Source: Tubiluchus corallicola
Taxonomy: Eukaryota > Animalia > Priapulida
Assembly (NCBI GenBank): GCA_030141605.1
Contig: JAQGDQ010000002.1
Span: forward strand, 310,001-374,000
DNA: 64,000 nucleotides
Direction of reading: 5' to 3'
Of this stretch, positions 1 to 36,270 are shown piece by piece. A program made the translations under genes and the position numbers. Position 1 is the stretch's first letter. The number at the start of each line of letters is the position of its first letter. The notes beneath the pieces were generated by a model. That model was not told the DNA's origin and searched no databases. It saw only the letters and a list, made by a program, of their open reading frames with translations.

Positions 1-64
1 TACAGCACCAACTGATAAAATGCTTCACGGTTAACCCATCCGAGTAGATAAATTTCCATTTTAG

Positions 65-6000: not shown

Positions 6001-7732
6001 TTTCAGCCATGTCTGAATATGTACACATCTTTTGCCAGCTATGCAAGTGTTCGCTAGCAGTTTAACAGATAAAATTGAACTTTATGTTCACCCATCCATT
6101 TACTGGCCAGGTTGGAGTCACTTAATTTCAGTTATGAAACACCCAGTCCGTATTATCCATATAAATAACAGGCTGTGAGTAAATACCAATACCCTAAAAC
6201 TTTGTGCATTTTATGGATTTAGATGATTTTTGAGGCCGTTTTGCAAATTAAAAATAATAATTTATGTTATGAAACGTTACATGTTTAGCTACCTAAACTG
6301 TTTTTTAGGGAGCACTTAAACACTATTATTGTCTTTGAATCATTTTTTCATTGTGCTTCTTACCTGTCCATGGGCTATCTTAGATATCAGGTCCTACTTT
6401 TTTATTAGTAAATTCACAGTTGCACTTTTATAAATGATTTATTAGTGTTGTGATTCTGTTTGGAACGCTATTTTGCAGATAAGGAAAGCTTATTAAAAGG
6501 TGCATTGGATTTAGCAGAAGATGTAGCATCAAAAAGTCCAGTGGCAGTCCAAGGCTGTAAAATTAATCTTTTATTTTCACGAGACCATTCTGTTGCTGAT
6601 GGCCTACAATTTATGGTACATTTATGTTGATAACATTTTACATTCATTAATTTAAGTTATATATATTCTATATATAAATAAATTCTATAAATTCTACATA
6701 CTGTGAACATGCAATGAAAGTCAGATATAGATAATCTTAAGCTTTCCTGCATAAATTTAAATTATGTGGGTAAAGAGAGTTTACTCCTCTCCCCACCTAT
6801 CCATCCTAGAATAATTCATAAATATTTAAAGGTTGGGCTTCGCTTCAAGGCTGCCATAAGAAGGTGGAAGGTAGTAGTCATCTCGGAGGATAAGAGATGA
6901 ATGCCATTTCATATCTTTTGTTATTTGACACAAACTGCTTAAATACCAAAAGATTTTTCTATTCTGCTAAGTACTAACTTGATTTTTTATAGCAGAATTG
7001 ACAAAAATTAATTAGTAAATTACTAGTACAAGCTTTTAAAACCTAGTTCCTAAGTTCTGAATTTTCCTTTCAATTCAGCGTTGCACTTATTTCTGATTAC
7101 ACTTATGTATAATGCTGAGTGATATTTGAAAAACAGTAATATATTTTCATGAGATTCAGATCATATTTCAAGTGTATAGTGCACCACTGTACAACATTGT
7201 AGCATTAGTTTAAGTGCACAAATTCATATAACAACAGATGTAATTTGAATTGCACCTGTTTTTCGCGTGGCTAAATTAAACTTTTTTCTCTGTTTTATAT
7301 TGTTTTGTTTTTCTACAATTATCAATAAGTAAGGAACCAATAATTATCGTTCTTGTCTGATTTTCTGGCTCACATGACTTGCTAAAAATAACAGGATGAC
7401 AACAGCCATTTTAGTTCAACTATTGTGTCACTTTTTTTTGCAGGTGCATCAAATAAAAGTGACACAAATTAGTCTAATGTGCAGCTAAGTATGAAATTAA
7501 AGAGATTGCCACTTTTGTAAAGATCAACTGGATTCCGATGCATTACTCTTCCTTAAGAGAAAGGCGCAAAAGTGTTGTACTAAACAAAAAGGCTAAAGAA
7601 TCGCGTCCATTTTAATGTTTTTTTTTTGTTTTACAGCAAGCTTGGAACATGTGTATGGCACAGTCTGAAGATGTCATGAAAGCAGCAATAGCCAACATAG
7701 AAAAGAAAACACCTACATTTTCAAAATTGTAA
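65..7732 (+). CDS. ECH1: Delta(3,5)-Delta(2,4)-dienoyl-CoA isomerase (crotonase family); 5' end uncertain
   Basis: Exons 65-248, 2588-2676, 3095-3225, 4399-4512, 5715-5871, 6479-6615, 7637-7732 join in frame with GT-AG sites. Motifs LNRPEKLN, CRAVVISAAGKMFTAGLDL, KPVIAAVHNACIGGGVDLITACDIRYC, KEVDIGIAADVGTLQRLP, SKSPVAVQG; ends TPTFSKL* (PTS1). Start codon could be upstream, ATG 20 or ATG 100. Confidence 0.93.
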
Positions 7733-8350
7733 TATGAACTCTTTCGAATGAAGAGAAGTTATGTGATATGAGTGTTATGATTTGTTGAACAGATTTACAT
7801 TGCAATTAGTTAAATAATAAGTGCTGTATTAACGAACAGAATGAAAAATGAGTAATAATGTGTAAATAAATTATGTAAATGCAGTAAAATACGAGTTTGT
7901 TTTAACACTTTCTATTTCTCTCACTTGTGAAGAAACTGTCATTCAGAACACGATATTGAGCATTAATCCCACAATATATAGTGCTAATTAATCCCACACA
8001 TTGTATTAACAAAAATTCGCTTTTTCTTTCATGTAGGAATAAGAAAGTAGTTCAAGAAAATAATTTCACGTTCTTTAAAAGTACTTTGCATACTGAAGTA
8101 AAGATGGCTGAACCTTCAAGCTTTTATATTTTATAGACTTACAGATTTTAAAATGTTACTTTATGAAGCTTCAGACGATGAGAAATGTATGCATACTAAC
8201 CTCTTCTGAGGCTTCAGCCCTCGCATCAACTTGGAGAATTAATGATGGTACCCCAGACCTGTAGATTTTAAGATTCTAAGGCCTAGGTCCTACAAGGTGT
8301 GTATGATGAAGGGAATTACTAATCGAATGATTATACTGTGCATTTAGCGA

Positions 8351-8749: not shown

Positions 8750-9786
8750 TTGCCAGTGGACATTTGGGTAGTACACACTTGGACAGTGGCACTTGGGCTG
8801 CAGACACTTGGACAGTGAACATTGTGGGCAGTAGGATACTTGAGCAACAGAAATTTAGGCAATGGAACATTTGGGCAGTGAACACTTGGGCAATTGATAT
8901 TTGGACATTTTGGTGGCATAAGCTACGCTTGGGTAGTGGACGTTTGGGTGATAGACAGTTTGCAGTGTAGGTTAGTGCAATGAATACTTTAAGCAGTACA
9001 AGTGCTACAGGAGCAGGAGCACTACCTAGCTACTTACCTACCTGGTTACCTACCTACCTACCTATTTTTCTACACACCTATCTACCTCTCTACCTACCTA
9101 CCAACCTACTCGCTTGTTTCGCTCAATTACCTACCTAGATGTCTGCTTACTTATCCACCGCCTACCTGTCTGCCTGCCTACTTATTCTTATCTACCTGTT
9201 TGCCTAACAATCCATCTACCTAGCTGCCTTCTTACCTACACGACAGAGGTTGGACGCTGTAAGATACTGCATGAAAACAAACACACTCTTTCATTTTGAA
9301 AATTTCAGAATTGGGCAAAATAATTATACAACTGTTAATTGCTATAAGTTGTTGGTTAGCTAGCTAGCTGGCTGACTGATTGGGTGGGTAGGTAGGTAGG
9401 TATAGCTTAATAACTACGTAGGTAGATGGTGGATAACTAACCAATATAAGTAGGTAGATCAGTAAGTAGATGAGTCGGTAGGTAGGAAGGTAGGTGGATG
9501 GTGGGTAACTAATGGGTACAGAAGCAGGCGCGTGGGTGGGTAGATAAGAAGATAGATAGGATTAGGTAGGTTGGCGGAACTGACAATGTCCCCTTGCCAA
9601 AATATTTTACACTTGTGCTGCATAGTGTCAATAGTTCAAGAACCATTCCTCAAGAACGCACTGTCTTATTGTTCACTGCCCAAATGTCCTACTGCCGAAA
9701 TGTCCAGTTGTCCACTGCCCAAATCTCCACCATCCAAGTGCTTACTGCCAACGTGTCTACTGTCCAAGTGTCTACTACCGAAGTAT
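8750..9786. mobile_element. Foldback-type non-autonomous element with modular inverted arms
   Basis: The left arm (~8750-8970) is made of ~15-bp units like GGCAGTGGACATTTG and the right arm (~9670-9786) of their reverse complement. Inside, (CCTA)n-like 9020-9240 faces (TAGG)n-like 9360-9570. Confidence 0.6.
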
Positions 9787-10086
9787 TAACTATAAAAGAG
9801 GCCGGATTAATTTGGGTACATATATCTATGACTTCGAAGACCTGCAAAGTGCAAAGACGAACATAAAATGTTGCAGATGACGCCACATTCTCAATTATAG
9901 CTTGTGTCGCCACCTGTAAAAGTTATTTCAGCGACGCCATTGTGTAAGTAAGAAATGATATCATAGTATTTATGTCTGATTGTATGCCAAAATAAACAAG
10001 TTAAATTCTGTAGTAAGTATTCGTTGAAGAATACGGACAACGACTATTTGTCTAAGGCGTACGGTTTATACGTTTAACTTCGCAAA

Positions 10087-13000
10087 ATGAGTGAAGTAAC
10101 GCCAAAGAAAATGAAAGTAGCGGAGTTGCGAGCCGAATTGGAAAAACGTGGTTTAGATGTGAAAGGAAACAAAGCAATTCTAGTACAACGGCTTGAAAAA
10201 GCAATACTGGAAGGTATTAATTACGTTTATTACACGTAAAATAGTTTTTGCGTAGCCTAGCAGCCAATTGTATTATTGTTTGTCTGAACTACTTTCTTTA
10301 AGGAAATATCACGAAGGACTTTGTAGTTGTACATCTGCAGGCTTGCCCAGGATTTGAAAATGGCGGCATTTCAATGCGCTGTGGTGACTGTGCGGTATAC
10401 GTTGTGTTTTATCAACGAGTTTGACAGTCAGGTTTCATGACTGAAAGTTTTAAATTTTATCAAACTTCTCATCCACCACACTCAATTCTTTGCAAAACTA
10501 GGCAATGTTATGTAAGTTTACATTTGTGCACTGTAACTGAAAGAAGTGTTAGATGGGAGAGTCGGATGAAACTTGGGAAATCTGAAATTGCAATAATATT
10601 TTAATAATATATTTTTTATCTGCGTCAAACTTTAAATTGCGAGTAGATTCTTGGTCTCTAGTCGTAAATTAGGAAAAGTGGCGACAAAATGAGCTGGGCC
10701 TGTTATTTCTAACAAATTCTTGGATTTTTTAAAGGGTGAGTCATGACTGAGTAGGCCTATATTATAAATACAACGCTTGCAACCATTTGGCGAATTTAGT
10801 ATCCAGATTCAGGAAATCGTATTCATGGTATCCAGCTATAACGTAAACCATAATGTGTTATTGATTGTTGGCTGAATATTTTATATGCTATTGTTTAGTA
10901 ATTCGTAAATGTGTAGAGCTCCCTTTGCACCACTAATCACTACAACCACTGGATATAGTTGAATTCCAGTCTAAATCGATGTGCAGAGTGCGGACAAGGC
11001 TTTCTAGCATTAAGTCCTACTTGCAGTAACCACATTTTTGCAGACTGTGGCACAATGTGCGTGCGACTTTTGTCATTGTTTTGTTAATTGGCATCATAGA
11101 TATGATTACGTGTACAGTTGTGTAAAAATTAATTTTGCTAGGTTTCATGCAATGCAAAATTAATTTTTACACAATTGTACACGTAATCATATACAATTTT
11201 ATCCTCTTATACAACTGCAAGGTACTTAATAGTCTATAAATGTGTGCTTTTGTCTTAATGCTTTTACATTACCTTAAATTCAGCCACAGTAGGTCGTTCC
11301 TTATAAGAACACCCACATTGTTTTTACATTGCTGAACCCTCGACACCTTTATCTCGCTTAGCGATGTATGTCTCGTTTTACTAACAATTTTTGGCCTTAC
11401 TTTAAATGGTGAAATTTGTTTCTGAGCTTGCAGTCTCGCACTTTGTTAATACGCCTGCTACAGTACCCCAGATCACCGTAAAGAAGTCCTGTACTAACCC
11501 AAATCACATTAATAATTTTTCATGTGTCTAATTCATATTAAGAGAGCCATCTGCGAGATAACAATTTTGACACAATTCTCTCATGTTGCATGGTTGAGGT
11601 CAGTTAGCACTGAATGCACTTTGCTTGCATGTGACTTGAGTTGAGCCTTTATGTTTATACAATAATGTGAAAACTAATCAGGGGAGAAGCTGTAGAATTG
11701 CAAAGTTGCTACAGTAATATGTAATAAATTGTTATTCCTTACCTTTTAGTAAACAAACAAGTAAACCTCATAAAGAGTGTAATTGTAAGTCAAGTTTTAT
11801 TGTTTTTTGCTCGTGTTAGACAACTGAACGGTTTTACAATAGTTCCTATGGAAGGAGGAGTTTCATTTAATGATGTTTCGCTTAATGACATGTTTTGCTG
11901 GAATGCTTCAGTATTGTTATGCGAGAACTTGATGTACTTGTTAGAGGAAATTTCATGACGTGTGGATTTCACAATGTTATAAATTTTATAAGCTATCTAT
12001 GTCAAAAAGCAACTGTAAGAGGAAGAAGTTTGCAGTGGTTTTCCTTACTTGTCAATAAATGTCAGTAAATTTATATAAATACTATTAATAATACTATTTA
12101 CAATGCTTTTTCGCTATGCCTATTCTGTGGAAAATTTATTTGACCTAATGTCAAGGCTAGTGTGCTTGTATAACTGCTAAACCTGCTTTTTGCAGAGTCT
12201 GGCGATGGTGATGAACCAGAAACTGAGAATGAGAAAGATCAAATCGAAGTGGAAGGGTCACAATATGCGAAGGTAGAAGAGACGCAAGAGGAAACTACAG
12301 ATTTGCAGCCTGTAAGTACCGTGTTGTAGTCTGCTCAAAGCCTATATAATGAGTTAATGAGTTAAGCATATCATACAAATTATCACACTTATTGTTCAAT
12401 TTGTATGTTTCTTGTCTAGGAAGTTAATGGTGAGAAAGTTGGTACTGAAATTTTACCCCCGGAAGAATCGACACAGAAAGAGGAGGTATAGGATACGGCA
12501 TCATTTTTGTAATTTATATTTTGATACAAAACCAGCGATGCTTTTCGCTGGTAGTGAATATTTTGCTCTTAAATAGTAAATGCACATTCTATTTGAATAA
12601 ATAATTTGCATTTTCAGAAGCCTATCAGTAATGATGAAGCTCACTCGGAGGAAGTTAAGGATGAAGTGGCTGTGGATGAACAGGTACGACTATTTACTTG
12701 CCTGATTTATAACAAAGGGTTGTTATTACTTCAGCATGTGACTATAAAAAACTTTTCTCAGTTATATGTTAAAATTCAACCCGAATTCAATTTCAGGAAG
12801 ACATGGAGAACATGGAAATAAAGGAAGAGTGGAAAGCAGGTGAAGAAGAAGATGACACCAAGCCTAAAGTGGAGACGGACGGAGATAAAAGTGCGTCTAC
12901 ACGTAAATACAAGATAAAAGAAGCGGATATTGAAATCTCGAGTGTTCGTGTATCTAAATCTGGCAGGGCATACTTTTCTAATGAGCCCAGCTTTGAGTCA

Positions 13001-16000
13001 GGTACAGCATTAGTCGGTTGCTGTGCTTCTCTGTGACTTCTAAGCTCAAAGATTTGTCTGTGAGAGTTAAATTGTTGAAAATTAATGCAAGGTTGGTAGA
13101 TAAATGGCTAGAATTCATAAAAGCGTTCACTTAACTTTTGTTTGTGTATGCATGTGTATTTCAGAATCTGATGATGATGGTCGACATGGACGTAAGAGAA
13201 GGCATTCCCGCTCTCGTTCTCGAAGCCCCCACCGACATGAGATTAAAAGAGAACATTCTCCTCCTGTAAGGGATGAAGAAATAGATCTGATAGATCCTGC
13301 TCGGACTGTTCTTGATAGATGTGAGTGTAGCTTAGAGAGTTTGCGTGTAATGTAATTTACGTATCTCTCTGTAAGTAGGTTTTGAAATGCATCTTGCATC
13401 AAATTTATGATTATATTCTTTTTATTTATAAGCGTTTCGTAGCTTACTTTTTGTTGTAGTTCAAGTTGGTAAAAAATCTGTGTTACTGAAATACTATGTT
13501 TCGTCTCTATTTTATAATGTAAAAGTAAAAGTTGTGCAATAGTTTCAGGCTTTCTGTAATGATTTGTGGAGTTTGCAATGTCAACTTTATAGTTGAGTGT
13601 TTGCTGTCCTGTTGCAACAGTGTTTCAACATTTCCAATAATGCTATGCAGCTAGTATCCTTCGTAAATTGCACAGTAGCAAACTAGAACAATAATTATTG
13701 AAAATGCTTAAAGTTTGTCAGTTTTTTCATCTGGACTCTTTTTTACATATGCGTATTTGTGAATGCTGTTTAATACATACTTTGCTCATTTAATAAATTT
13801 ATAAAAGGCGTGCCTTAAAATGCAGCAAAATATTTCAGACAACTCTGATTTGAGTTTAAGAATAAACAAGGAATCGTTGTCAGCTTCTCCTCTATCAAAG
13901 TTTGGCTTTGCTTTTATGTGGTCTGGAGTTCGTGCAACGTATGGAGTGAACAAGGGCATTGTGTGTTTTGAGTGCAAAGTAAGTACCGTTTGGCACGTGT
14001 GAGATAAAAAATGTAATAAATTTCACATATAGTTCCGTTTTCTGCCGTAAATGCTGTGGTTTCCATAAGGTATTGCAAGCACCAATAGGCAGTAGTATGT
14101 TAAATAGTGTGGCATTGAATAAGAAATTTTTTTCATAGTTGAGGTTTTCTTTGTTTTGGCAGAAATTTAAATTATTTGATAAAAATGCCAGTTCTGTATT
14201 TATTATGTAACTAGATTTTTTTTTGTTATTTATATGCCTGTTATATTGTTTCGTAATGAAAAGTTTGTTGTACTTGTGACTGTGTAAGTGGCTTGTCTTG
14301 CAAGGATAACGGTGAAAAAATGGGCATGTTGGCTATGTATATACATATTTCTTGCAGGATAGTCGTTGGACTGAGGGGGGGTTTTGTTTTCAGAAAGCAT
14401 GCTAAAATTTTAGTTCCAAACACACTTTTGTTCTATACCTATGTTATCTCTTATCCTTCTTTTTATGTTGAATTGTTTGAAAATTTACATTGTTTTATCT
14501 TCATCTTTCTTGAATTACCCAGTGAAACTAATTAAATCAACCTGCTGCTGCTGATTGAGCAAATTCTTAAATGTCTTTGTTATAATAGGCCAGATAACTT
14601 CCATTATTAAGAAAGCCGTGCAATATGTAATCTCAATTAGAAAGTCAATGCTTACATTCCTTTAACAGTAAAGTGTATGTAGTCAAGGCTAATGCAAGCT
14701 TAACAACTAAAGACATGACATGCATTGTTGTGATTTTTCATCAAAATACGGAAACAGCAGAGCAAGTTACAAATCAGACATCAACTTTTGCAAGTTTCAT
14801 TTAATTATTTTTTTCTTTGTTTAAGCTGTTTGTGTTTCTTGATGTTGTGTATATTTACAGTAGCAATTATATTGTGCTGTGATGTTTGATGTAGATTGTA
14901 GATGAGATGGAGACGACATTCACAGAAGCCGAACAGGATCCTTTTGTTGTCCGCGTAGGTTGGTCAACAGACTACTCTTCATTGCAGCTTGGTAAGCTAG
15001 TCTAGGTTACGTAACATCATTGATTACCCCTGCTTTTGTGTTTTTATTCTGTTGCTTCGTATTCCTATTGCACGTGCACCGAAAATTGCATATTTTCAGT
15101 TTCTTCATCATATTTTGCATTTTTATTTTTGACATTAATGTACCCAACAGATGTAAACATATTTATTTATATCTTTAAAAGTATGTAAATTAAGCAACCA
15201 ATTAAATGTGATATTAGAACGATACAAAATGGTATAATGTCAGAGAAAGTGTCAAGATGGTGGAAGAGAAAGACTAGTAGGTCACTTACCCTCATTTACA
15301 TTGTTTATGATATAGCTTGTGAAGCAGCACTTTAAATGCATATGTTCTAATTAACATTTCAGTTAATCACATCCTAAGTCAAATTAATACATATTAAATA
15401 TAGTAAGGTTTAACTGCCTGTAGGTGAAGAACAACTGTCTTATGGTTATGGAGGAACTGGGAAGGCATCTGCTAGTTGCAAGTTTAACGACTTTGGTGAC
15501 CGCTTTGGAGCTGGTGATGTCATTTGTAGTATGGTGGTATGTAGTTTTTTTATTAGATTACCAAACTTGACAAATTTCATTTCAAGGCATGAAAAATAGT
15601 ATGATTTTCTTTTTTTATTTGGAAAATAGTAAATATAATCAGGTTTCTATTTATTTTATTTAATGTATACATTAGTATCTAGAATAACCTCAGTTGTGGT
15701 AATTACAGGATTTCACTTCTTGGCCCGTGAAGATTTCGTATGTGAAAAACGGTGAAGATCTAGGTGTAGCATTTACCATTCCAGAGAGTGACCTTGGTGA
15801 TAGGGCGCTCTTTCCTCACATCTTGACTAAAAACATGTCATTTGAAGTGAACTTTGGTCAGAAGGATGAGCCGTATTTTCCTACTCCTGAAAGCGCAACA
15901 CTGATTGATAAACTGCCATTGGAAGACAGGGTTAGAGGGTCTATTGCTCCTGACAAAAAAAGTGACTGCACAGTAAGTTTTGCTTACAGTAATTAATGTT

Positions 16001-19000
16001 TCTTGTGAAAATGTTACTACTAATATTTTAATTTTAGTTGTTAAATTGTTTTGTTATGTAACTAGCTGCCAAAATATTGTACATTAAGTTGTGAATTGCT
16101 TCTTAATAATTATTTTGAAGAACCTTGGTAGGTATTTTTGAAGAACCTTGATAGGTATTTTAGTTATGGCGGGACTTTTTTTTTGGTTGAGCTAACTACT
16201 TAAATTGACGTAATGATAATTAATATTTTGCAGTTTGTCATGATGTGTGGATTGCCAGGGTGTGGCAAGACTACTTGGGCTCAGAAGTTTGCTAGTGAAC
16301 ATCCGGAGGACAAATACTATATTCTTGGAACCAACAATATTTTGGATAAAATGAGAGTGAGTGTAGTTTTGGGCACGATTTTTTCTTATTGCTTTCTTAA
16401 AAAAATCTATGAATGTCACTATCTCTTATTTGTCGTAGACATTTATGTATTATATATATATACTGAATTAAGTTATTTTTTTAATAGGTAATGGGTCTAC
16501 CAAGAAAAAACAACTACCATGGTCGATGGGATGTCCTTATTGACATGGCAACAAAGTGCTTGAATAAAATGTTTGAAATAGCTGTTAGACAAAAACGCAA
16601 TTATATATTGGATCAGGTAATGGTGTTATGTAAAGAAACCAAAATTTTTTGCAATCATTTAGTTTTAATTCGTTTAATAGAATCAGTCTGCATTGAGTAA
16701 ATGCTGAATGTCTTGAATTTACTGAATATGATCCAGATGATACTCGATTTATAAAAGTGTAGCGATGACACTGCTTAACACGTTCCAAAAGTAATAGAGA
16801 ATTTGTATGTTTGATTTTAGTGTGCAGACTTGGTAATATTTGATAGCGGTGATATAGTTGCTCTGAGGCTGACTGGTAGGATTCTTGATGAGCTATGTTT
16901 ATGAGTAGAACAAGTTTTGCAAGCTTAGGTATGTTTAGGAATAATGGCTGCCAACTGCTGTCGACGCAGTTGACACATGGATATTTACATATGCTAGAGA
17001 AGTATTTGACATTTAGCTGCTATCGACGCAGCTTGGATTACATCGCACAGCAATGCACCTAATAGTGATTATGTTCACAGTGACCATTGAGATGCAGATA
17101 AACTAATGCTGGTGTACAGCCAAATATAAATTAGATCAAAGTAAGCCTAATACCAGCTATAGTGGTTTTCCTATCAGCTGCTATTGATGCAGCTTTGAAG
17201 TGAACCAATGAAGATGACATCACCTAACGTGACTAGAACAGTTTACTAATGTATGCAGAGTGCTAGAGAAACGTGAAATAACTAGGAAATCCACAGTTTG
17301 GTGTTAGAGTATAAAACATATCAGTTACGATTGGTATCACTGCAGTCTGACTAAAGTTATATTAAAACTTGACAGTTGTTATAACACCATAATAAAGGGC
17401 AGAGGGTGCTACATCTGGTAGTAATGATATGTGAGTGATAAATTGACCTCGTGTTGCCAACATCATGGCAAGTGAAGCACAAAGCATATAATGTCGTGAA
17501 TGTACCAAGAAATGTTCTACAAAACGAAAGTCATTACAGACTTCCAGTGTGCTTATTTATAGCAAGTCATATTTGTACTCGAGTGAAGCAATGTATCGCC
17601 AGGAAAAGCGTATTACCGTCGCGATATAGAAGAAATGTCCTAATCATCACTTCCGTTACAAGTTTGCACACTAGTGAACAAGGATGATTGTTCACAGACA
17701 TTGATATTATTGAAAAGTATTACAATGTGCAAATTTAAAGCAGGAGTAGAACCACTTAGGAATGGTTAAGGTACTTTTTGTAAAGTTAACCACAGAGCAA
17801 CTATGGTCTGTTTGCGTGACAAATATATTTGAAAAATGCCTATTTTAATATTTACTTTGGGGTTGGAAATAATGAGAATAACTCTGCATATGTTTGGACA
17901 GAAAAATCTATAATTTGTAAGTATTATTCTTAGCTGTAATATGCCAAATTTGATATTAGGAATAGCTGAGTAGTATCAATAGTAAAATTGCTATTGGTGA
18001 GTATATACTAACCAGTTTTTCAAGTTACTCAAAGTTATGTTTTCAGAAGGCATTTTTCAAAGATAAAAAGGTAAGCAAGATTTTTTTACTATTACACAGC
18101 AGAAGAAAAGCTGGACTCTTATGACGTGAGTATGTCATTTAATTTGTTATCGTAGGACTTATTGTCTCTGTAAGGGATAGGTGCTGTGCAAGAAATATGA
18201 CAATATAAAACTATTAGTCAATGAATTTAGCAACATAGCTTAGCTAATAAATAAATGTTTTGTGTGCATTTTTTGTACGTGTATTGCACAGTGTATATTT
18301 TGATGTTATTCACTTACATTGCTGTGAGAGATTTGTTGGAGTTTATACCTGTGCTTGTTATTGTTATCATCGTTGATTTGCTTCAACCTAACATGATTTT
18401 TTGAATGGATTAGTATTGAACATGTCCAGTGTTTAGGAGCAGAGAACATTTAATTGTTAACACATGTTGTATTTAAACTCGACAAATAATTTTTGACATG
18501 AGTAAACATACTCTGCATTTTGAAGACACCATTTGAAGTATTTGCTTTTGTTCATGGTTGATTACCTTTCAAAATGGTGTTTTGTCATACACGCGACTTT
18601 GCAACCGGAGATGTCTTGTTTTGATGGAAAACTCTACGAACCGCATTTCTTTTATGTGGGAAACATGTTTGCTTGTTGAACACATTGAAGCATTTATAAT
18701 AAATTGAGAGGTAATGTTGAAAACCTCGATGCTCAGTGCACAGAAGTTATTATTTTGAAAGTGGTTTTTGGTTTGTTGTAAGCAGTAATTTGAAACTGTA
18801 CTATTGAAGATGGTGCATGTTGCTCAATGCTCAGCTTGCTAGCAGTATTAATGACGTTAGGGGATGTGCTCTTTTGAGATCTATGTTAAGATTACTAAAA
18901 CAAGTGTTTCTTGCTTTTAATGTAAAGTTTTTTAAGCAAAATTGTAATCTGAATTGTTGAAATAAGAAAGTAGATAGAATTGATTAATACAGTAAATATG

Positions 19001-22000
19001 TGAACCGAGTTGTAAGCAATTGGCATCCATCACACTTTATTGATGAATTTTTTGACTCACTACATGAACATTCAGAAATATTATTATATATCAATGTAAT
19101 TTTCATCTTTTTCAAAAGATAATGTATCTGATGTTTGTACTTTTTCAGTTGACTATAGTTAGCTCCAGCTGAACTGAGATTTTTACTAGAAATTTTACTG
19201 AAAAACTGTGTATTAAACAGTGATTAGATGTGTCATACTAGTTATTAAAGATGTTTCTCAGTTTGGGGTTAATGTTTTATCTCTGCTAATTTAAGTTGGA
19301 GTTTTCTATGTCAAGGTTTTTATGTAATAATACAAGCATATTTATAAAAAATCAAATGTCATTTAAAAATCTTTCTAATAGTATTGGTAAGCTTGCTTAG
19401 GGTGTTGTAGCATTAAAGTATAATACTCCACGAAGGACTTAAGCTTTTGCCACTTTTAGCTATTTTTATGTTTATGGAAATGTCATTGTGCAAGTACACA
19501 GACCCATAGCTATCAGCTGGTTGCCAGTGGCCAATAAGCTAGCCTGTGCTTGAATATGTTGGCAGTCAAACAGTGCTAATATAATTGTTAGTTTGTAGGC
19601 CTTCCTTTAAAGACACAATACTTACTTGAGCGCTAAGGACATTTTTTAAATAAAATTCATTTAAAAAATTAAAATTTCCTTAACCTGTTCTGCAAAAGCA
19701 TGATAGGTAAATGCTGTTGTCAGATTGTTTTTGTACTGATAAGATTTGCAGAAACAGAAGATTCTATGAAATTAAAAAGTACTGATAAGTTAAGCTGAGT
19801 TATATATTTGTTTATTTCACTTGTTTTATATGTAATCTGCATATCTTATTGTCTCAGATAGAATGCTAATTATTATTAGTGCATAAGTCACGGCTGATGG
19901 ATACCAAGGCTTGCTGTGTGTGTTTAAATGTCATTCATTTTTCACAAAGAGATAGGCATCTTTGCAACTTGTCATCACAATGTTTTCTTGTGGTTCGTCA
20001 TTGTAAATAATCAGGAGTTTGTCATTGATAATAAATTTCTGACTAGTTAAAATATATAAAAAGTATATGTTACAAAATTAATTAAGTTACACATTAACCG
20101 TCATTAATTACAGTTTGTTAAGTCTCTGCGCGATCATTACCGAGTAAGTTAAGGTCAGTGTAAGATGTTGAGTGCTTATGAGCTTTTTGACGTATTTTTT
20201 GATCATTGTTGTTATATATACATATGTATTTGGAAAAGCGTTATAGCTTTTGATTGGAAGATATGTGATGTTTATTTCTGTTCACCGTTTGATATCACTT
20301 GATTCTAGTTGTTTACGTTTAAGAATTTACATTTTTCCTTGACGTTCAGTTGTTTGTATTAAAGATAGCATAGTTAAATGTCTGTGAGGTAATTTATTGT
20401 AACATATTATTGAAAGTTGGATGCCAATTGAATTTTACATATTATGATGTACAGTATTGATATACATAAGCAATTGTACATATATAACACATAATGTGTC
20501 CAGTAAACTAGTTGTTTGAATGTCATGTAAGTTCGTGGCTGGATCAAGGTAAGTGGGGCGAGTGGGTTATGGGTTGGGATCATCCATTGTACGCGACACC
20601 AAATTAAAGCATCCGTGCAAGCTTTTTATTGCAGTTGATATATATTATTACACATCAGGAGGGCATTGGTCTTGCAGACCATGCTTAGCCTCATGTTGCC
20701 ATGACAATGATCATGTGATTATAACAACCATTATGTGTCCAGACCAATGTATATCCATCAGCACAACGGAGAAAAATGCGTCCGTTTGAAGGATTCAAGC
20801 GAAAAGCTATTGTCATTGTACCAGAGGATGAAGAATTTAAGATTCGATGTGAAAAGAGAACAAATGAAGAGGGAAAATTAGTACCTGATAGCGCCGTAAA
20901 TGAGATGAAAGGTAAGGTAATTGTAAGGTACTGGGTTTGTCATCACGTAATACTTAAATAACTGACTATAGTTAAATGTAGTTATGATTTATTAACAAAT
21001 CCTTGTCATGGTGTGTCTATTCTGTTTGCTCCTCTAATGTTCCATTGCAGTGTACCAATTATGAAACTGTCCAGCTATCTGCACTGCTTAAACTAGTTAC
21101 CTATCATAGAGGCATAATTATAGTAGAAACAGACTGCTATTTTAGCCAGTGGTGCACCTCTTGAAGCTTTTGGCTAGTTGTGTGTGTTATTTTTTCTTTT
21201 AGTAGCTCAAGTGCTTTCAAAGGATGGATGGTTTCATAAATGGCACATACATTAAAATTCAAGTTTGCAAACGTACAAAAAATTGTTGCATGCTCATTAC
21301 CTTCCCTACCTACAATATGTCGCTAGAAGTTCTGTGTTATGTGTCGTCTCTGTTATGTAAGAATTTATATCAGCTGCAGAATCAAAATTACTGTGCACTT
21401 ACAATACAGTTGTTATTTGCAGCAAACTTTGTCTTACCCAATATTGGTGATCTCTTTGATGAAGTGGAGTTTGTAGAACTGCAAAGAGAAGAGGCAGAAA
21501 AGCTAGTGACTAAATATAGAGAGGAAGGAAGGGCTGCTCTTCCTCCGGAGGCTAAACGCCGCCGTGAAAGTTTTGATCGTCCTCGCGGTGGTGGTGGTAG
21601 CAGTGGTGGCAGCTTCCGTGGCCGTGATGACAGAGGCGGTGAGATTTTTATTTAAACGTGTTGCTCTTAGCAGTGGCTGACTACAATGAAAAGATTGTTT
21701 GCAAAGCAGAGTTATGTTTTTTCGTTTTGTGATACTTGAGTTTTTGTGCTTATTTATAGGGTTTAGAGGTGGATTTCGTGGGAGAGGCGCTCCTGACAGA
21801 TTTGGAGGGGGCAGAGACATGTTCCGAGGAGGACGTGGTGAAGGCTTTGGGGGTTACCGAGGTGGCTATACACCCAGAGGTTCACGGGGAGGTAACATTG
21901 GTCGTGACGATCGTAGATTTGGAGGAGGCAGCAGTTTTAATCGAGGTAACATGCGAGGTAATATGAATTATATTGTAATGCATGTGTACGCATGAATCAC

Positions 22001-23284
22001 TCAAAGCGGTGAGCAAAGGTATGACTTGTTCATACAAGAAATAACCACTTAGCTAATGTTTCCTAGAGCTCTGTTTGCTTTGTTAAAGTTAGTGAGAGAT
22101 AACTATTGTAATTTAGAATGAATTAAACGACACAATTGACCATGTAACAACATTTGTACTCTCTAGTTTGATGATAATGAATGGACTCTTCAAAACAAAA
22201 CTAACAAACCGTTAAGGGATAACTTTTTTATTAGTCATAGCAGTTACTGTTTGCATAGCAAATCGAATCAGCAATTAAAGTAGGTCCACTGATTTTCATC
22301 TATCAAATCTATCTTCTTAGTGTTTGAATATTAACAATTATTAATACTTTAGTCATTTGAAATGCTGTACTTAAATCATAATTTTAGGTGGAAGAGGAAG
22401 CTTTGATCGTAGTTCACGTGGCGGATCTTCATATGGCGGTGGCGGATCTTCGTATGGTGGAGGCTCATCTTACAGAGGTGGGAGTGGTGGCTCGTCTTAC
22501 AGAGGCAGTGGCGGCTCATCTTTTGGAGGAGGTGGCAGTGGCGGCGGCAGAGGAGGCGGCGGCTACAAATCTGGAGGAGGCACATCATGGCAAAGTCGTA
22601 ATCAGGGCGGCTATGGCAATCGATCATCTGGACAGGTAGAGACAATTTTTTACAACTTTACGGTTATAATTGATATTACAATTTTGAAACAGGGAGATAA
22701 ATTTACATATCTTTTACAACAAACAACAGAGATGTGTTGCTCTTTTTTCATTAGCAACTTGATTTAAATTCTGACCTTGTTTACTCTATATAGTCAAGCT
22801 GGGGTGGCAGCAGTTATAGTCAGCAGGGCTACGGCAGTGGTAGTAGTGGTGGTTATGGTCAGTATGGACAGAGCGGTGGATATGGAAGCCAACCTAGCAG
22901 TTATAGTTCTGGTTATGGGCAGGTACCTATTTTAGTTAATATATTTTTAAGCGCTTTACTTCCTTTTATGGTTAAGCTGTTCGTCACATCAAATTAGTGC
23001 TTGCCAGAATGTGAGTGCTTCGGCTTAATTTTACAGTGACACTTTAATTTATGTTCTTTTTAAATTACTTATATAACCTTTGCGTATAGGGCTATGGACA
23101 GCAGTCCTATGGTGGGCAGCAATCTGGACAGTACTCTAGTGGATACAATTATGGTCAAGGCAATTATTCTCAGCAGTATCCACAGCAGTACGGTCAGCAA
23201 CAGTACTCCAGCGGAGGATACAATTACGGCTCGTACGGTACTAGTGGAACTGGATACGGCGGTTACAGTGGTGGCTATAGGTAG
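10087..23284 (+). CDS. HNRNPUL1: Heterogeneous nuclear ribonucleoprotein U / U-like 1 family protein
   Basis: 18 exons: 10087-10213 (SAP: [29 protein letters not shown]), 12196-12311, 12420-12485, 12618-12683, 12797-12890/12902/13001, 13165-13320, 13839-13978, 14895-14991, 15424-15536, 15709-15972 (SPRY), 16234-16356 (Walker [10 protein letters not shown]), 16488-16616, 20743-20911 (YILDQ/TNV), 21423-21638, 21760-21957, 22388-22635 (RGG), 22794-22922, 23090-23284 (SYGQ-rich, TAG). Splice phases are all consistent. Confidence 0.93.
10357..10367 (+). promoter_or_regulatory. YY1-type motif near hnRNP U 5' end
   Basis: AAAATGGCGGC, the canonical YY1 site, early in intron 1. A GCCAT motif also precedes a likely non-coding exon donor at ~9944 (GACGCCATTGT/GTAAGT). 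Confidence 0.4.
11100..11192. repeat. 39-bp inverted repeat (hairpin) in hnRNP U intron 1
   Basis: ATATGATTACGTGTACAGTTGTGTAAAAATTAATTTTGC, 15-nt loop, then GCAAAATTAATTTTTACACAATTGTACACGTAATCATAT; one mismatch, which is G-U on the sense RNA. Confidence 0.9.
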
Positions 23285-26655: not shown

Positions 26656-29600
26656 CTATAAAATCGAGTCCATTAGTTGAAAAGTTGCCCCGAGGCTCCA
26701 GCTAGTTTCTGCTCCATTTATTTTCTTCTTGAGCTATAACATACACAACACATATATTTGCAGGGTCAAGAACCTAGGGGTGGATTCTCAAAGCTTCTTA
26801 TGAACTGTTTTATTTATAAGAACATTCTCAGGCTTATGATAGAATTCACAAAGGTTTCCTAACCTGACAAGCTTATTAAAAGCAATCGTAACTTGCGAAA
26901 TCTCTTATAAACATGTCAGTAAATCCAGTTGTTTGATGTTGCTAATCTATGAATGATTAGTGACTGGGTCCCAAAAGAAAAATTAATAAATAAATCGTGC
27001 ATCCGTAAAACGTTGTACACTGCAGTGCACAGTATGTTTAGAACTGAAATAGTAGCTACATGTATACTATAATTCATAGTTAACCCGTAGTAATAATTTA
27101 AGAGTTTCCACAATAAGAAAGATCAAGCTTTCCCAGACATTGTTTTCCATGTCACACCAATAAGTCTGAAGGTGTCTATTCTGCATCCATCAGACATCCT
27201 TCATTCTGTCACCAATTTTTATTTGGAACCAACAAAATACTTACCAACAGCTTTGCAGATTTATCAAAACCAAAACCATGGTGTAGCAAGGCACTGATGT
27301 AGGAGAGATCCATACAGAGGAAAGTATGCTGAGAATCAATAAATGAGCATTCTGAACAAAAAATACATACATTTAAAATACACAAGTACATATTGGGCAT
27401 ATTTATAGCTTGAATGAGAGAGAGAGAGAGAGAGAAAGATTGGCTAACTGACCGAAATATTTTATGCCCATACACACAATAAAAATGATAAAGCATAAAA
27501 ATTGTTTGTTGCCAGTTTACTCTATGGGCAGGTAGTATTTTATTTTTTGGCATGTGACTACGTTTGATTAGAATTAACCAATTTTTGATTAGATTATCAA
27601 ATCTTATTTTGACGAGTTCTTCCTTTTTTGCATTTATTCAAAGATATCATTTTTGTTAAAGAAATATAGCAATTCTTTTTTTAACTAATTAATATAAGGT
27701 AAATATAGTTCTGCATCCTTAACTTTTCTTTTTCAATTAAAATGGTATAAACCATCATATGAACATGCAACTGTAAGCACTAGTCAGGCCTGGAAAATCT
27801 TACCAGACTGACGGACATAGTCCGTGGGACACTTCTTGTACAGGACCCAATTTTTTCTTAAAGTATTTTTTCTCAAAATTTTAATTGCCATTTTTCTCTC
27901 TTTATTAGTAAAAACGACATAACTGATCCACATTCTAATACTCATAAAGTCAAAACGTAATTATTACTTGAGGTAATATTTTATTTGCATGCCTGACATG
28001 CTATGCTGCAATTTGTCCCTACTCAAAAACTTGGCAGTGGCAGAATGTGCGGGTATCATGTATGTGCATAATAACTATGCAGTAAGTGTAGCTGAACTAT
28101 TATAGTAGTGATCTCGTTCTACAAATTGGCAGCTTGCTGTTATATTGATTTTTGCAGTAATCCAGTTAGATTTCCAAGCCTCATTGAGTGAGATAATTTG
28201 CAGAATTGTTGTTTGAAGTTGTGTCCTAACAAAGCGATAGAACCTGTAAGCCTAACAAAATAAAGGTCTCCTTTCTTAGTACAGTTCTAAGAACTTTTGT
28301 GGAACAGTATTTAAGATGAGGCAAAATTATCTTGCTAAGCAATACAGTTTTAAATCACTTAACTCTAAACTACAAATTATTGTAATGAGCGAGTGTGTAA
28401 CATAACTGAAATAATGTTTGAAGATAGCAACTGCATTAGCAATGGGAATATATTTAAGTGGTGAAAATTCCAATAAAATTGACATTTTAGAAGTCCAACT
28501 TTTTAGATCTTCATGGAGCTTTGTGGCTCTTGGCTGTAACCCCCCCCCCCAACAACTATCTCGATACTAGATACTTCTATAAAAATCTCTGGGCTTGGTC
28601 CATCACCAGGATGCCAACTATACCTCGTTTTGCTGCATGAAAGAAGTCCCACACAGTTACAATGCCACCTTGCTTTTTGCTGATGATGCCAGCGTCAACC
28701 GCTCTATCAAAATAGTATGAGAAGGCATGAAAGACTTCATGCTTAACTTCCAAAGGCTTATGAATATGATGTTCTTCTATTAAGCTTCTAGCTGTTTTGT
28801 AGCACTCCCAGAACCCATGAGGAACAGTGGGATCATTTCTAAAATGAAAGCAATGCAACACCATACAATAATAAGTTTATTTTACAGTCACATACTAATG
28901 CAATTTATACTTTACTTCTTTAAAAAGAATGCATTTTCTTCTTTCAGTGTCATTTAAGATAATTTAATACACACTGCAGTTTATATAAAAAGATGAACTC
29001 GTATTTTTTTAAATTAAACAATTTAATTGGGCATTCCATTAGACATACGTTATGTTGTAGTCGGCACCACCATGTGTCCACAAATTGACATGCTCAGGTG
29101 GAATACAAGGACTCCGAAGTGTAATGGGTTTCTGCACCCAAGCTCTTCTAGTTTCTTCTGGCTCCTCTTCCTCACCCATCATTTCAAGTCGAGCAGCCAT
29201 CAGACCCAATCCTAAATAACTAGACAAAGACAAAGCTTATACTCATGTTCATTCACTAAAAAGGTTTGCTAAGAAAAAGTTTACTTTTATTAATAAAATA
29301 ATAATTATTTTATTAATAAAAGTATATGTAAATGTAATTTAATGCATTTGTTAGTAAAATGCAGTTGCCAATACATTACAATATGTGTAATATCTTAAAC
29401 TCAGTTTCTGAATGGCAAGAATGACCATTACCTATCAATAACTATCACTCATACAAATTTTTTATAATGAAAACAAGTAAAAATAAGTTTGTCGGTTACA
29501 CTGTCTTGCTTGTGTATCGATGCATTATACATTAATTTTATGCTCAGTATTAACTTTTGGAAATAATGGTTTGTTATCATGTTTATCATTTTTTAATGAA

Positions 29601-32600
29601 ATAGCTATTTTGAATGTGTTACTTTTAAATAGGCAAAATTTGCATTCTCGCAACACATAATTTAATGTGCCAAATGGAACTTTGAAAATATGTATCTATT
29701 GTGCGTGTCATCTGATGCTTTAAATTTGAACACGTACTAAAAAGTTTAAAGCTTTTAAGCTTTTTTTGTTCACATTTCAAACAAATAGAAGCTTCTCCAT
29801 TTATAACACAACACAGTTCCAATTTTAATTAAATTATTTTACTAGAATGTTATCAAAATTTATTTCTAAGAAACTATTATTTTTCATGCGCTTATGTACA
29901 AACCCATCTTAAATAGAGGACTGATTAATATTAAAAATAATTAATATAGATCTAGCTCTTTACAAAAAACAATCTTCTGAAATATTGACCCAGCAAAAGC
30001 GTTCTTGTCATGTTTGCACGTATATATACAAATTCTACAAAGAGGAAAAATAAAGGGTGGAAGTAAGCCACATGAACACCTATCAATCACCTACCTATTT
30101 AATAACCAGGCCCTGCACTGCTCAACTTTGTAACAGAGCACAGACTGTGAACACTACCTCTGCATTACTATTAAGGACATCTCATTGACAATACTATTGA
30201 ATATCAGCTTGTTACCTATGTGTATACAAATCAAAAGTCTGCCCCAAAACATGATATTTGTGCATGAACCCGTGAGGTGCACTCAGTGCAGAAGCCTGAC
30301 TCTCTGGCACAAATGTTATCTGAGTAGAAGCCCCACCAAGATCTAATGCTCCCTCTGTATCTGCTAGCTGTGTAAGCTTGTCTGAAAATAAAAATAGATT
30401 GTGTACTCACTAAACAGATTCAGAAACGACTAATTGTAATCTTTACCCCAAATTTTTTTTATGGTAAACGCTTTCTACAATTAGTTATTAATCATATTGA
30501 AATTTACTATGAAGGTTCTCAGACAGAACTGTTAGGACTTTTTGCATCAAATTATTTGGACTAATAGAAGTTCTTACATGCCAAAACAGATTTAAAACAT
30601 ACAGAAAAATTGGGTAAATTGTAAAGACATAGACAGGTTAGTCTCAAACGTGTGTTAATCAGAACTTCCTCAAGATTGGCAAAGAACATCACTAAGAGTG
30701 TTAACAATCTTTAAATGCAAACAAGAAGTCTAGGGACAACACCTACTGTGCACAATGCTGTTAAAACAAACTGGCTTTGCACAATTATGTTGATAGAAAG
30801 TATCTTTCCAAAAAATATGATATGCTATAGTTATTTCAAATATTCCAGTGTTTTCTACAAAACCAATTAATTATTATCTGGCAGTTGTCATTCTGTAGTT
30901 GCTCTAGTTACTGTGTTGTTAGTAATGGCAATGAAATACAATTATTCAACTGTAGTGGCACTGAATTACATCCTTACCAACTAAAAAGTTGACCGTGAAC
31001 CACGAAAATATTCCTTCATTAATTCCATCCAGGATAGCAACTTTATTCTTTTCAGTGATAAAAGGTAAATAGTGAAAAATTTTCCATACCTGTAAGATAT
31101 TGTCAACACGTCTGATTTCAGACAATTAACTTTTTCTAAAAACTGAACAAACTATGTACCTTGACTTTCAGAGTATTTGATTCCGTAAAATATGTGTAGT
31201 ATGAAGTCATATCACATGCACTTCTTGTATAAAATTAAGGTACAATGACAATATCATCAGAAATCTTGCATTAAACAAAATTGTGATTAAATTAAACCAG
31301 AAATCAGGTGATTGCTTACGTTTGCACAAAATAAATAATATTATGTGGATTAAGTAAATATCAACTGCTCAAATCATACAAAATAATAATGTCATGCAGT
31401 TAAAGATGTACACTGCCTTGAAAGAACTTCACTTTAGCAGTAAGAACAGTTTTTGCACATACGTTATACCTCATAATTAAAAATTATACAGTTGAAATAA
31501 TAACCAAAGGCCAAAACAAATTACACTTTTATTAATGCCAGCAGTAGCACTTCATTAAAAAACATTTAAAAATAAAAAAACAATTATAGATGCCGATTTT
31601 GCAAAAGCATGTAGCTTATGTAAAATTTGTTTGTAATGTGTGCCACATGTTATGTACAGATTTTGTAGTATTTATTTACAAAACTATATAAAGAAAAAAA
31701 AACAGCTCCCTGAATCTTGAAAAAAGCTCACTATATATTGTTTTTTAAAGTGGCCCTCTTTGTTTTGGAAATTACTTTAAGTAACCGTTTTGCTATCACC
31801 ATTAATTAGAATGTGAATGGACAATAAACTTTGGGTTGTAAAAATGCATTGACAACTGCAAAAGTTCTTACCTCTTTTATTAAACTATTAGCTTTCTTTT
31901 CTGAAAGAAGCCTCAGACCAGCAGTTGCATAGAGGGCCATAGGTGTCATCTGCCATTGTTCCTGAGGCACACTTTGTTTAACTACTTGTAAAAGTGGTGC
32001 AAGGTATTCATTTACCTAAAACAAAAGTAACAGTTGTTAAATAAAATTATGTGCAAAACAATAATTAGTTGAACGTCAATGGTAAAAGAAATAAAGTGAG
32101 ATGATCTTTTGATAGGTATTAGCTTACCATACAAACTTTTGTAAATAAACATAAATCAAATAGGAATTCAATTAACTAACAGATTATTAGTACTGAGCAA
32201 AACTTTAAAAACTGGAATTAAAGTCAGATGCTCATTTCCTAAACCCTAATTGACAGAGTAATTTTGCTGTTCAGATTAATCAAATTAATCATGTAGTTCA
32301 AATGTGTTCAAGTATGAATATTCCATGCCTACTACCTAGTACTACTGTTTTAATTATTTTGTTTTAACCTTTGATAATTTGCACCTTATCTGGGCCAAAA
32401 GTTCATTTTTTCTGCATAGAACGAATATACTAAATACGATCACAAGAGTCTGACAAAAAAAACCTTAAAGCAAACATGTGCAGTTACTGGCGGTCCGTGT
32501 ATAAATGTGATTTGCTATAAAATCAAAACAAAACAACTTACATGTGTAGGATTGTCCACAAAACTTGATAAACCTGGCTGAACTTGTTCAAAAACTTCTG

Positions 32601-33535: not shown

Positions 33536-33953
33536 TAATAAGCAATGTACATGTTAACCAGTTGTAATGATTTGTAGAAAATATCCACACAGCCATCTAA
33601 CATTATCTCATCGGAACTCTCACTGAAATAATAATAAAAAATTGTGAACTGAAGAGATATCACCAATACAGCTTGTCACCTGTTATATGACTTATAGTCT
33701 ATATATATTGGGTGGCGACGAAAAAATGTGCCAAAGTTTAGACTATAATAATATTAGAAGCAAATGCTCTATAAAGTTGAAATTTTACAGTTGTGTGGTA
33801 CTACACTGCATTAGATTTTGATGTTGAAAGTTAATGAAAGTCAAAAATTTATAGTTTTAGTTCTTTTTAAATTATAGCCGAAAAGTTTTCGCATGTTAAA
33901 AAATTAGATACAATGTCAGCTAATCACCAACTGAAAAACAGCCACACTGACAT

Positions 33954-35715: not shown

Positions 35716-36270
35716 AAGGATTGTGTTGTAAATTAAGAGCTAATGCATGATGCCAATAAAAAAAGTGAACAACAAGAAAAAGTACAATTATAACTTGTAA
35801 TTCATTATGTTCCTAGAAACTTAATACTGCTGTAATTTTAAAGGCTTTAATTTACGGTTTATGCGTCACAACGTATGGTTTACGGTTTAGTTAGTTATAC
35901 AAATTGGGCTTTTAACTCTTTTTCTGTAAAACTCACGTGATAAATGTCGACTCACTGTTTTAATAAAGAAACTAAGTCAATTTTTACTAAACTACTGCGT
36001 TCACTGTAACTTTGTGTTAGTGACATTGTATAAGTCTCAAAGAATAATATATTTGCAAACAAGTTTATAATTTCACAAGTGAGCATTGTTTAATAATCTG
36101 AGAATTAACGTTGTCAGTATTCATGAACTTTAAATAACAGCTGTTAAAGCCAGTTGTAGACTATTGACTATGTTGCGTTTGTTTTATTATACTTACTGCT
36201 GAAATAGATGAGTAAAGCTAGCTAGGAGGCTAACTTGTCATCAAGTCATTAGTGGGTATAAACTGCAGTC

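What the first reader, a model, noticed from the sequence alone, without database searches (positions are those of the whole stretch)
16617..20742. Oversized hnRNP U intron splitting Walker B, loaded with 5' splice sites: candidate detained-intron/decoy autoregulatory module
Seen: at 4.1 kb this is the largest intron of the gene (next is ~2 kb, most are under 0.5 kb). It has no obvious TE ends, a weak A/C-rich true acceptor (ATAACAACCATTATGTGTCCAG) and many sense-strand donor-like sites: GTGAGT 17431, GTAAGT 17917, GTGAGT 17997, GTAAGC 18071, GTGAGT 18126, GTAAGG 18170, GTAAGT 20144, 20527, 20549. It interrupts ILDQ/TNV of the P-loop domain, so any insertion should inactivate the protein. Known: RNA-binding-protein genes often autoregulate through poison exons or decoy-exon-driven intron retention (SF3B1 intron 4, OGT intron 4, HNRNPL). 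Inference: a homeostatic splicing module in an invertebrate hnRNP U.
Basis: partly seen in the sequence, partly recalled or inferred. Interest (0 to 1): 0.7.

Follow-up and report, generated by a model that had tools for sequence, protein, structure and literature searches.

The report
Ancient decoy splice site, hnRNP U
One intron of an invertebrate's gene for the RNA-binding protein hnRNP U hides a strong splice donor about 200 bases before its end, the same signal sits at a similar place in fish, arthropod-like and other animal copies of the gene, and it likely works as a decoy that would hold back or spoil part of the message and so limit how much of this dosage-sensitive protein is made.

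Summary
The intron is real (16617-20742, 4126 nt, largest of 17; joined in an RNA contig of a close relative). Overall donor density is only borderline (p 0.03-0.08), the acceptor is not weak for this gene, and large size is not kept in all relatives. The real signal is narrower: the two strongest donors of the gene lie 216 and 194 nt before the acceptor, behind a near-copy of that acceptor, framing a 23/45-nt pseudo-exon that starts with TAA. A GTRAGT donor lies 50-300 nt before the same acceptor in 9 of 12 animal lineages, against 6 of 68 other introns of these genes; orthologous acceptors are T-poor and orthologous introns carry about twice the donor density. The pseudo-exon varies from 0 to 45 nt and was never seen spliced in; four protein records read into this intron with upstream exons joined (two do so at the next intron). 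Best reading: a conserved decoy that favours retention; poison inclusion is the main rival. Use of the site and autoregulation are not shown. Not found described for hnRNP U in nine paper searches; an unchecked scan note reports a similar silent micro-exon in a sawfish HNRNPUL1 (intron identity not verified).

The parts
10087..23283 (+). hnRNP U / hnRNPUL1-family gene, 18 coding exons (SAP, SPRY, P-loop domain, RGG and QG-rich tail)
   Evidence: Open 877-codon model; 12 joints listed for RNA-type contigs of run X2 match modelled introns; relatives carry PF02037, PF00622, PF13671 and hnRNP U-like names
16488..16616 (+). Exon 12 (129 nt), ends in ILDQ
16617..20742 (+). Intron 12, 4126 nt, phase 0; retention gives a stop at 16698
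16929..16934 (+). Donor-like site at +313 (7 of 9); possible counterpart of the strong donors at about +125 to +425 in orthologous introns
   Evidence: correspondence inferred
17917..18175 (+).
20481..20503 (+). Cryptic acceptor: near-copy of the true acceptor (last 10 nt identical, 78% over 23 nt; about 0.002 such 10-mers expected in the intron by composition, post hoc)
20504..20548 (+). Candidate decoy/poison pseudo-exon, 23 nt (to 20526) or 45 nt (to 20548); first codon TAA in frame after ILDQ
   Evidence: never seen spliced in
20527..20532 (+). Cryptic donor GTAAGT at -216 (8 of 9 U1 matches)
20549..20554 (+). Cryptic donor G|GTAAGT at -194 (8 of 9); positional equivalent found in most other lineages
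20630..20658 (+). Arm complementary (83% over 29 nt) to 21350-21378 in the next intron; would loop out exon 13; nominal and not shared by other lineages
20720..20742 (+). True acceptor
20743..20911 (+). Exon 13 (169 nt, starts TNV); skipping shifts the frame to an early stop

Best explanation
The Walker-B intron of hnRNP U genes carries a conserved strong hidden donor 100-250 nt before its acceptor, and this site likely acts as a decoy that would engage the splicing machinery non-productively, so that part of the transcripts would keep the intron (or part of it) and make no protein. Shown: the site, its position across lineages, the T-poor orthologous acceptors, the donor excess, and that every aberrant outcome in this genome (retention, 23- or 45-nt inclusion, use of the late donor, skipping of exon 13) ends in an early stop. 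Inferred: U1 bound at the late donor, often with a small acceptor just in front of it, competes with the true donor for the acceptor of exon 13 and slows cross-intron pairing; a second set of strong donors 125-425 nt into the intron would add competition. Inferred with less support (about 1 in 3): that hnRNP U level itself sets the balance.
For: GTRAGT at -300..-50: 26 of 30 orthologous introns (18 of 19 in clade A, 8 of 11 other lineages including the window) vs 6 of 68 other introns of the same genes; clade A counted once, 9 of 12 vs 6 of 68, p=4e-6; without window and clade A 7 of 10, p=6e-5, and p=0.017 against the 12 controls from those loci only. Antisense 0 of 12, about 0.09-0.22 expected per lineage. 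Lineages include one grouping with fish hnRNPUL1 (support 95) and three with arthropods (98). In clade A the acceptor-donor pair is among the few conserved islands of the intron. Donor-like density outside the last 300 nt: 75 in 23.4 kb vs 109 in 67.6 kb, same direction in 5 of 5 non-clade-A loci. Orthologous acceptors: 2.7 vs 5.2 T, p=2e-5. The spacer between upstream AG and donor is 0-45 nt, in or out of frame, which fits a non-coding role. Four protein records with SPRY and P-loop exons joined end by reading into this intron (P0005, P0125, P0126, P0127). Tandem donors and non-coding short cassettes are described for OGT and SF3B1 decoys (PMC6097662, parts read).
Against: No junction to or from the hidden sites in any data: the X2 contig, all 9 spliced loci and the 122 proteins checked show only the normal junction or no such region. 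The read-through records are not specific: 2 records read into the next intron (P0049, P0109), and the search that found three of the four favoured proteins ending here. Three lineages lack GTRAGT (L004, L007, L061; they have weaker or different donor-like sites) and one clade-A locus (L015) has none. The -300..-50 interval was chosen after seeing most loci; 50 of 68 controls come from one clade. In the window the acceptor is not T-poor and total donor load is borderline. Decoy-type retention is described mostly for introns over 1 kb, while most clade-A introns are shorter. Intron 13 of clade A is as conserved at its 3' end (33 vs 31 invariant columns), so conservation is not unique to this intron.
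Confidence: 0.45

Rival explanations
1. True poison splicing: the 23/45-nt pseudo-exon is spliced in, or the late donor is used alone (leaving 3.9 kb of intron in the message), and the product is destroyed by nonsense-mediated decay.
For: In the window the pseudo-exon starts with TAA and has an acceptor nearly identical to the working one. Frame-breaking candidates in L055 (19 nt), L059 (25/31 nt), L003 (13 nt); in clade A 11 of 18 start with a stop codon and 2 shift the frame. NMD would hide such joins from contigs.
Against: 9 of those 11 stops are a TAG that can equally be the acceptor (leaving 3 nt in frame); 5 of 18 add two in-frame codons; L048 gives 24 nt in frame and L007 zero nt. An AG within 45 nt upstream is expected by chance, so acceptors outside the window and clade A are weak evidence. 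No inclusion seen.
Confidence: 0.25
2. The element regulates skipping of the 169-nt exon 13: U1 just upstream, a T-poor acceptor and pairing between the flanking introns would silence the exon and shift the frame.
For: Exon 13 is the only one of 16 internal exons whose flanks pair above shuffles (p=0.007; 29-nt arms); skipping gives an early stop; clade A has a conserved self-complementary element in intron 13.
Against: p is 0.11 after 16 tests; only 1 of 21 loci (the window) shows such pairing at p<0.05; no protein record with exon 12 joined to exon 14.
Confidence: 0.1
3. Recursive (two-step) splicing or a neural micro-exon: the AG-donor pair is a normal stepping stone or adds one or two residues.
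For: Zero-length CAG|GT arrangement in L007, L036, L047; 3- or 6-nt in-frame readings in most clade-A loci.
Against: Lengths 3, 6, 7, 8, 19, 23 nt and encoded residues are not conserved; no insertion at this junction in 122 proteins; the introns are short (0.7-1.2 kb in clade A) and the site is only about 150 nt from the end.
Confidence: 0.08
4. An ordinary long intron; the donor-like sites are chance.
For: Whole-intron enrichment in the window is borderline; 3 of 15 other 250-nt stretches of this intron also hold GTRAGT; only normal splicing seen; size not conserved.
Against: 9 of 12 lineages vs 6 of 68 controls, none antisense, exact conservation in 18 of 19 clade-A loci, T-poor acceptors.
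Confidence: 0.12

Closest known systems
Decoy exons of SF3B1 intron 4 and OGT intron 4 (Parra et al. 2018, PMC6097662; parts 1 and 3 of 6 read)
   Same: Short non-coding cassette with its own splice sites inside an intron of an RNA-processing gene; tandem donors as in the OGT decoy; rarely or never seen included.
   Different: There the cassettes are conserved in sequence among vertebrates and retention was measured; here only position and donor strength recur across phyla, the spacer is 0-45 nt, many orthologous introns are under 1 kb, and retention is not measured.
Poison exons and poison 5' splice sites of RNA-binding-protein genes (e.g. HNRNPL exon 6a, SR proteins; PMC6547761, passages read)
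   Same: Hidden splice signals whose use would create an early stop in a splicing-regulator gene.
   Different: No inclusion, NMD sensitivity or self-binding shown; several orthologues would stay in frame.
Annotated human HNRNPU unproductive event ('essential 5' splice site', row in table ST2 of PMC10123112, supplement rows seen)
   Same: Same gene family, unproductive alternative donor.
   Different: Its downstream exon is 100 nt by the listed coordinates, not the 169-nt exon that follows the Walker-B intron, so it is a different intron (inference).

Membership tests
hnRNP U / hnRNPUL1 gene family | SAP + SPRY + P-loop (AAA_33) + RGG-rich tail | tested here: met
   Gene model; 45-62% identity to named hnRNP U-like proteins with these Pfam families. 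Placement within animals unresolved.
Decoy exon (Parra/Conboy type) | Cryptic cassette with 3' and 5' splice sites inside the intron | tested here: met
   20481-20503 acceptor copy, donors 20527 and 20549; conserved AG-donor pair in 18 of 19 clade-A loci examined
Decoy exon (Parra/Conboy type) | Evolutionary conservation of the cassette | tested here: met
   Donor position conserved in 9 of 12 lineages; sequence conserved only within clades; no genome close to the window's was available
Decoy exon (Parra/Conboy type) | Host intron is measurably retained | tested here: inconclusive
   4 read-through protein records vs 2 at the next intron, biased search; one 174-nt RNA-type contig inside the intron; contigs cannot give levels
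Decoy exon (Parra/Conboy type) | Host intron larger than 1 kb | tested here: inconclusive
   Met in the window (4.1 kb), L048 group (7.5-7.8 kb), L003, L061; not met in most clade-A loci
Decoy exon (Parra/Conboy type) | Splice-site mutation abolishes retention; U2AF binds the cryptic acceptor | not testable with these tools
   needs minigene and CLIP
Poison (AS-NMD) exon | Inclusion creates a premature stop | tested here: met
   In the window both forms begin with TAA; not so in all orthologues
Poison (AS-NMD) exon | Inclusion observed, and raised by NMD block | tested here: inconclusive
   No inclusion; no raw or NMD-inhibited reads available
Autoregulatory splicing loop | The gene's own protein binds the element and changes its splicing | not testable with these tools
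   none
Intronic snoRNA/known ncRNA host | Match to an Rfam family in the intron | tested here: not met
   No match in 16617-20742 at E<=5; none at gathering score in 8 orthologous loci

The most novel reading that the evidence does not exclude
hnRNP U genes have kept, since the last common ancestor of fish, arthropods and spiralians, a feedback switch in the Walker-B intron that is conserved as geometry (strong donor about 150 nt before a T-poor acceptor) and not as sequence; it survives in human HNRNPU or HNRNPUL1, explains why loss of one allele lowers expression by only about 25%, and could be blocked with an antisense oligo to raise protein in HNRNPU haploinsufficiency.
Probability: 0.2. 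Interest if true: 0.75.

Novelty: new member of a known kind. Interest (0 to 1): 0.5.

Why it matters
Many splicing regulators limit their own level through unproductive splicing, but my searches found no such element described for the hnRNP U family. Heterozygous Hnrnpu mice and human organoids lose only about 20-26% of expression and the compensating mechanism is stated to be unknown (PMC10569524, passages read). A positioned donor kept across animal phyla gives a precise, cheap target to test in public human, zebrafish and fly data, and shows a regulatory element that alignment-based conservation scans would miss.

Tried and rejected
No whole genome is held for this window, so no genome-wide background. 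Sequencing runs: no RNA holder listed; only contigs of one DNA-like run (X1, 99% alike, no conservation information) and one RNA-type run of a relative (X2) could be laid; lack of X2 cover over most of the intron says nothing. Rfam: nothing in the intron or in 8 orthologous loci. Folding of 20440-20790, 19600-19800 and 16930-17220 gave z = +0.4, -1.1, -1.0: no special structure. A 239-nt tandem duplication as the origin of the second acceptor: not supported beyond about 23 nt. Conserved pairing between introns 12 and 13: 1 of 21 loci (first attempt, timed out). 'Oversized intron' as a conserved trait: rejected. 'Weak acceptor' in this genome: rejected. In-frame micro-exon isoforms among proteins: none in 122. 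Naming the organism: the tree leaves it unplaced (quick tree only). Earlier scan notes by place and by sequence: nothing.
Full report
Gene and intron. The window holds an hnRNP U-family gene on the + strand, 10087-23283, with 18 coding exons that read open for 877 codons. Contigs of run X2, an RNA-type run of a relative about 90-97% alike in exons, give 12 listed joints that match modelled introns, including a 4126-nt GT..AG skip between exon 12 (…ILDQ) and exon 13 (TNV…). Intron sizes are 1982, 108, 132, 113, 274, 518, 916, 432, 172, 261, 131, 4126, 511, 121, 442, 158, 167. That the Asp of ILDQ is the Walker-B Asp is recalled; PMC13066744 (passages) gives D505 as Walker B of human hnRNPUL1 and calls the domain a dead polynucleotide kinase, and PMC5473940 (passages) shows Walker-B mutants of SAF-A alter oligomer turnover. 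The organism is an unplaced invertebrate (quick tree).

Checking the observation. Their number is only borderline: GTRAG 16 vs 10.1+-3.0 in 500 dinucleotide shuffles (p=0.052), GTRAGT 7 vs 3.8 (p=0.08), sites with 7 or more of 9 matches to the recalled U1 consensus 12 vs 5.9 (p=0.028); against the other 16 introns p=0.08, 0.25 and 0.024. The acceptor has 9 of 17 pyrimidines and 5 T in -12..-4, ordinary for this gene. What stands out is local: the only two 8-of-9 donors in the gene's introns, stronger than all 17 true donors (5-7), lie at 20527 and 20549, 216 and 194 nt before the acceptor. They follow a near-copy of the true acceptor ending at 20503 (10 nt identical, 78% over 23 nt; 0.002 expected by composition, post hoc; intron 1 has a 9-nt T-rich suffix match). 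The framed piece is 23 or 45 nt and begins with TAA in frame. Retention stops at 16698 and skipping of exon 13 shifts the frame.

Relatives. One scan of metagenome contigs with exon 13 returned 63 loci. Nine are spliced transcripts with the normal junction, L008 and L014 have too little upstream DNA, and the 52 others have an acceptor at exactly this position. I kept 29 after dropping near-duplicates; 19 form one unnamed clade (A), the other 10 are separate lineages: L059 groups with fish hnRNPUL1 (support 95), L007 with sea urchins (99), L048, L055, L060 with arthropods (98), L004 beside clade A (99), L003, L005, L061, L063 unplaced. Other introns of the same genes were mapped by protein alignment; four doubtful ones were excluded by rule and those under 320 nt were left out, giving 68 controls, 50 from clade A. 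A GTRAGT lies at -300..-50 in 18 of 19 clade-A loci and 8 of 11 others including the window, against 6 of 68 controls; G|GTRAGT 24 of 30 vs 3 of 68; 8-of-9 sites 20 of 30 (4 of 11 outside clade A) vs 3 of 68. With clade A as one lineage, 9 of 12 vs 6 of 68 (p=4e-6); without window and clade A, 7 of 10 (p=6e-5), or p=0.017 against the 12 controls of those loci. Antisense: 0 of 12; expected 0.09-0.22 per lineage. The interval was chosen after I had seen most loci; the L048 group was read later and has the site at -178. L004, L007 and L061 lack GTRAGT but have GTACGT, CAG|GTGGGT and G|GTAGGT in the interval; L015 has nothing. Orthologous acceptors are T-poor: 2.7 vs 5.2 T outside clade A (11 vs 32 acceptors, p=2e-5; six doubtful controls excluded by rule), the window being the exception. 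Excluding the last 300 nt, 22 orthologous introns (17 clade A) hold 75 donor-like sites in 23.4 kb vs 109 in 67.6 kb of controls, in the same direction in 5 of 5 non-clade-A loci, with strong CAG|GTRAG sites recurring 125-425 nt after the true donor. Size is not conserved: 666-1171 nt in clade A, often below neighbours of up to 2.9 kb; 968-1617 in L055, L003, L061; 7.5-7.8 kb in the L048 group.

What lies before the hidden donor. In clade A a conserved TTTGYAG stands 6-8 nt upstream in 18 of 19 loci examined: 11 begin with a stop codon (9 of them TAG, which could itself be the acceptor and leave 3 nt in frame), 2 shift the frame, 5 add two codons. Elsewhere candidates are 0 nt (L007), 13 (L003), 19 (L055), 24 in frame (L048), 25/31 (L059), but a nearby AG is expected by chance. 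Variable length and frame fit a signal that binds the spliceosome more than an exon that must be included.

RNA and protein evidence. No inclusion was seen: one X2 contig, 9 spliced loci, 122 proteins (118 normal by pattern, 1 normal on inspection, 1 hnRNPUL2, 1 without the region, 1 ending in the intron). Four records have SPRY and P-loop exons joined in one frame and then read into this intron: P0005 (555 aa, 1954-nt contig, identical to spliced L002 where they overlap), P0125, P0126 and a carp hnRNPUL1 model P0127. Against specificity, P0049 and P0109 appear to read into the next intron, and the search that found three of the four (84 hits) favoured proteins ending here. A 174-nt X2 contig maps in two pieces to 19625-19761; it may be retained intron, pre-mRNA or a small RNA. 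So retention is hinted, not measured.

Mechanism. Most likely (0.45) a decoy: U1 at the late donor, with a small acceptor in front of it, competes for the exon-13 acceptor and slows excision, diverting transcripts to a retained, untranslatable form. Poison inclusion or late-donor use with NMD (0.25), exon-13 skipping (0.10; flanks pair with p=0.007 in the window only), recursive or micro-exon splicing (0.08) and chance (0.12) are the rivals. The first three are all unproductive-splicing controls (together about 0.8). Feedback by hnRNP U itself is an untested inference from the class.

Literature. Nine full-text searches (listings and abstract starts seen) gave no description of such an element in HNRNPU or HNRNPUL1. 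Read: PMC6097662 parts 1 and 3 of 6, supplement search without a hit (one file not searchable); passages of PMC10569524, PMC13066744, PMC5473940, PMC9073674, PMC11628860, PMC13542418, PMC6547761 and bioRxiv 2023.07.22.550030; supplement searches of PMC6547761 (one file held; only data-set lists), PMC10123112 (one human HNRNPU event, in a different intron by exon length), PMC13078869 (file cut; expression rows only), PMC7726792 and PMC4737145 (no hit; one file each not searchable). Subscription papers, splicing databases and unseen supplements may list the event, so absence from print is not established. An unchecked scan note (e1-10284257) reports a 22-nt micro-exon with strong sites but no RNA joins in a sawfish HNRNPUL1 intron beside an exon with conserved flanks; I could not check whether it is this intron and do not count it as support.

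Verdict. A real, phylum-spanning splice signal in a known class of control element, apparently new for this gene family; function inferred, not shown. Interest 0.5.

Noticed in passing
window 16955-17192: Three copies of a 15-nt near-palindrome (16955, 17017, 17178), found nowhere else in the window (0.02 expected); copies can pair with each other, overall fold not above shuffles. Origin unexplained.
   Followed up: partly
window 19625-19761: A 174-nt contig of the RNA-type run X2 (depth 36 vs 254 for the spliced contig) matches here in two pieces; no Rfam match, imperfect C/D-like boxes only, fold z -1.1.
   Followed up: partly
L031:10906-11221 and equivalents in 20 other clade-A loci and L004: The last 300 nt of the next intron (intron 13) are conserved in clade A and match the opposite strand of two stretches near that intron's start, suggesting a long-range RNA structure; no counterpart in the window, no Rfam match.
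   Followed up: partly
window 11100-11192: Near-perfect hairpin in intron 1 (39-nt arms, 97%); below-threshold microRNA-family scores only; probably a MITE-like element. 11861-11919 behaves as a dispersed repeat in both runs.
   Followed up: no
window 8755-9791: Inverted-repeat element (arms about 8755-8884 and 9670-9791, internal short repeats, CCTA-rich middle) just upstream of the hnRNP U start; likely a non-autonomous transposon.
   Followed up: no
proteins P0136-P0173: About 37 unnamed short records lack the intron between exons 11 and 12 and leave the reading frame about 10 residues before Walker B, pointing to a lineage with a differently placed intron; whether it has the Walker-B intron is unknown.
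   Followed up: no
proteins P0127, P0129-P0132: Fish-like records that read into the Walker-B intron share similar tails, hinting at sequence conservation at that intron's 5' end in fish.
   Followed up: no
window 1-7750, 27000-33600, 36000-46100, 48000-61000: Neighbouring genes look like an enoyl-CoA isomerase (ECH1-like, +), an ENTPD-like apyrase (-), a coiled-coil basal-body protein (+) and an equilibrative nucleoside transporter (-); names recalled from ORF fragments, not tested.
   Followed up: no
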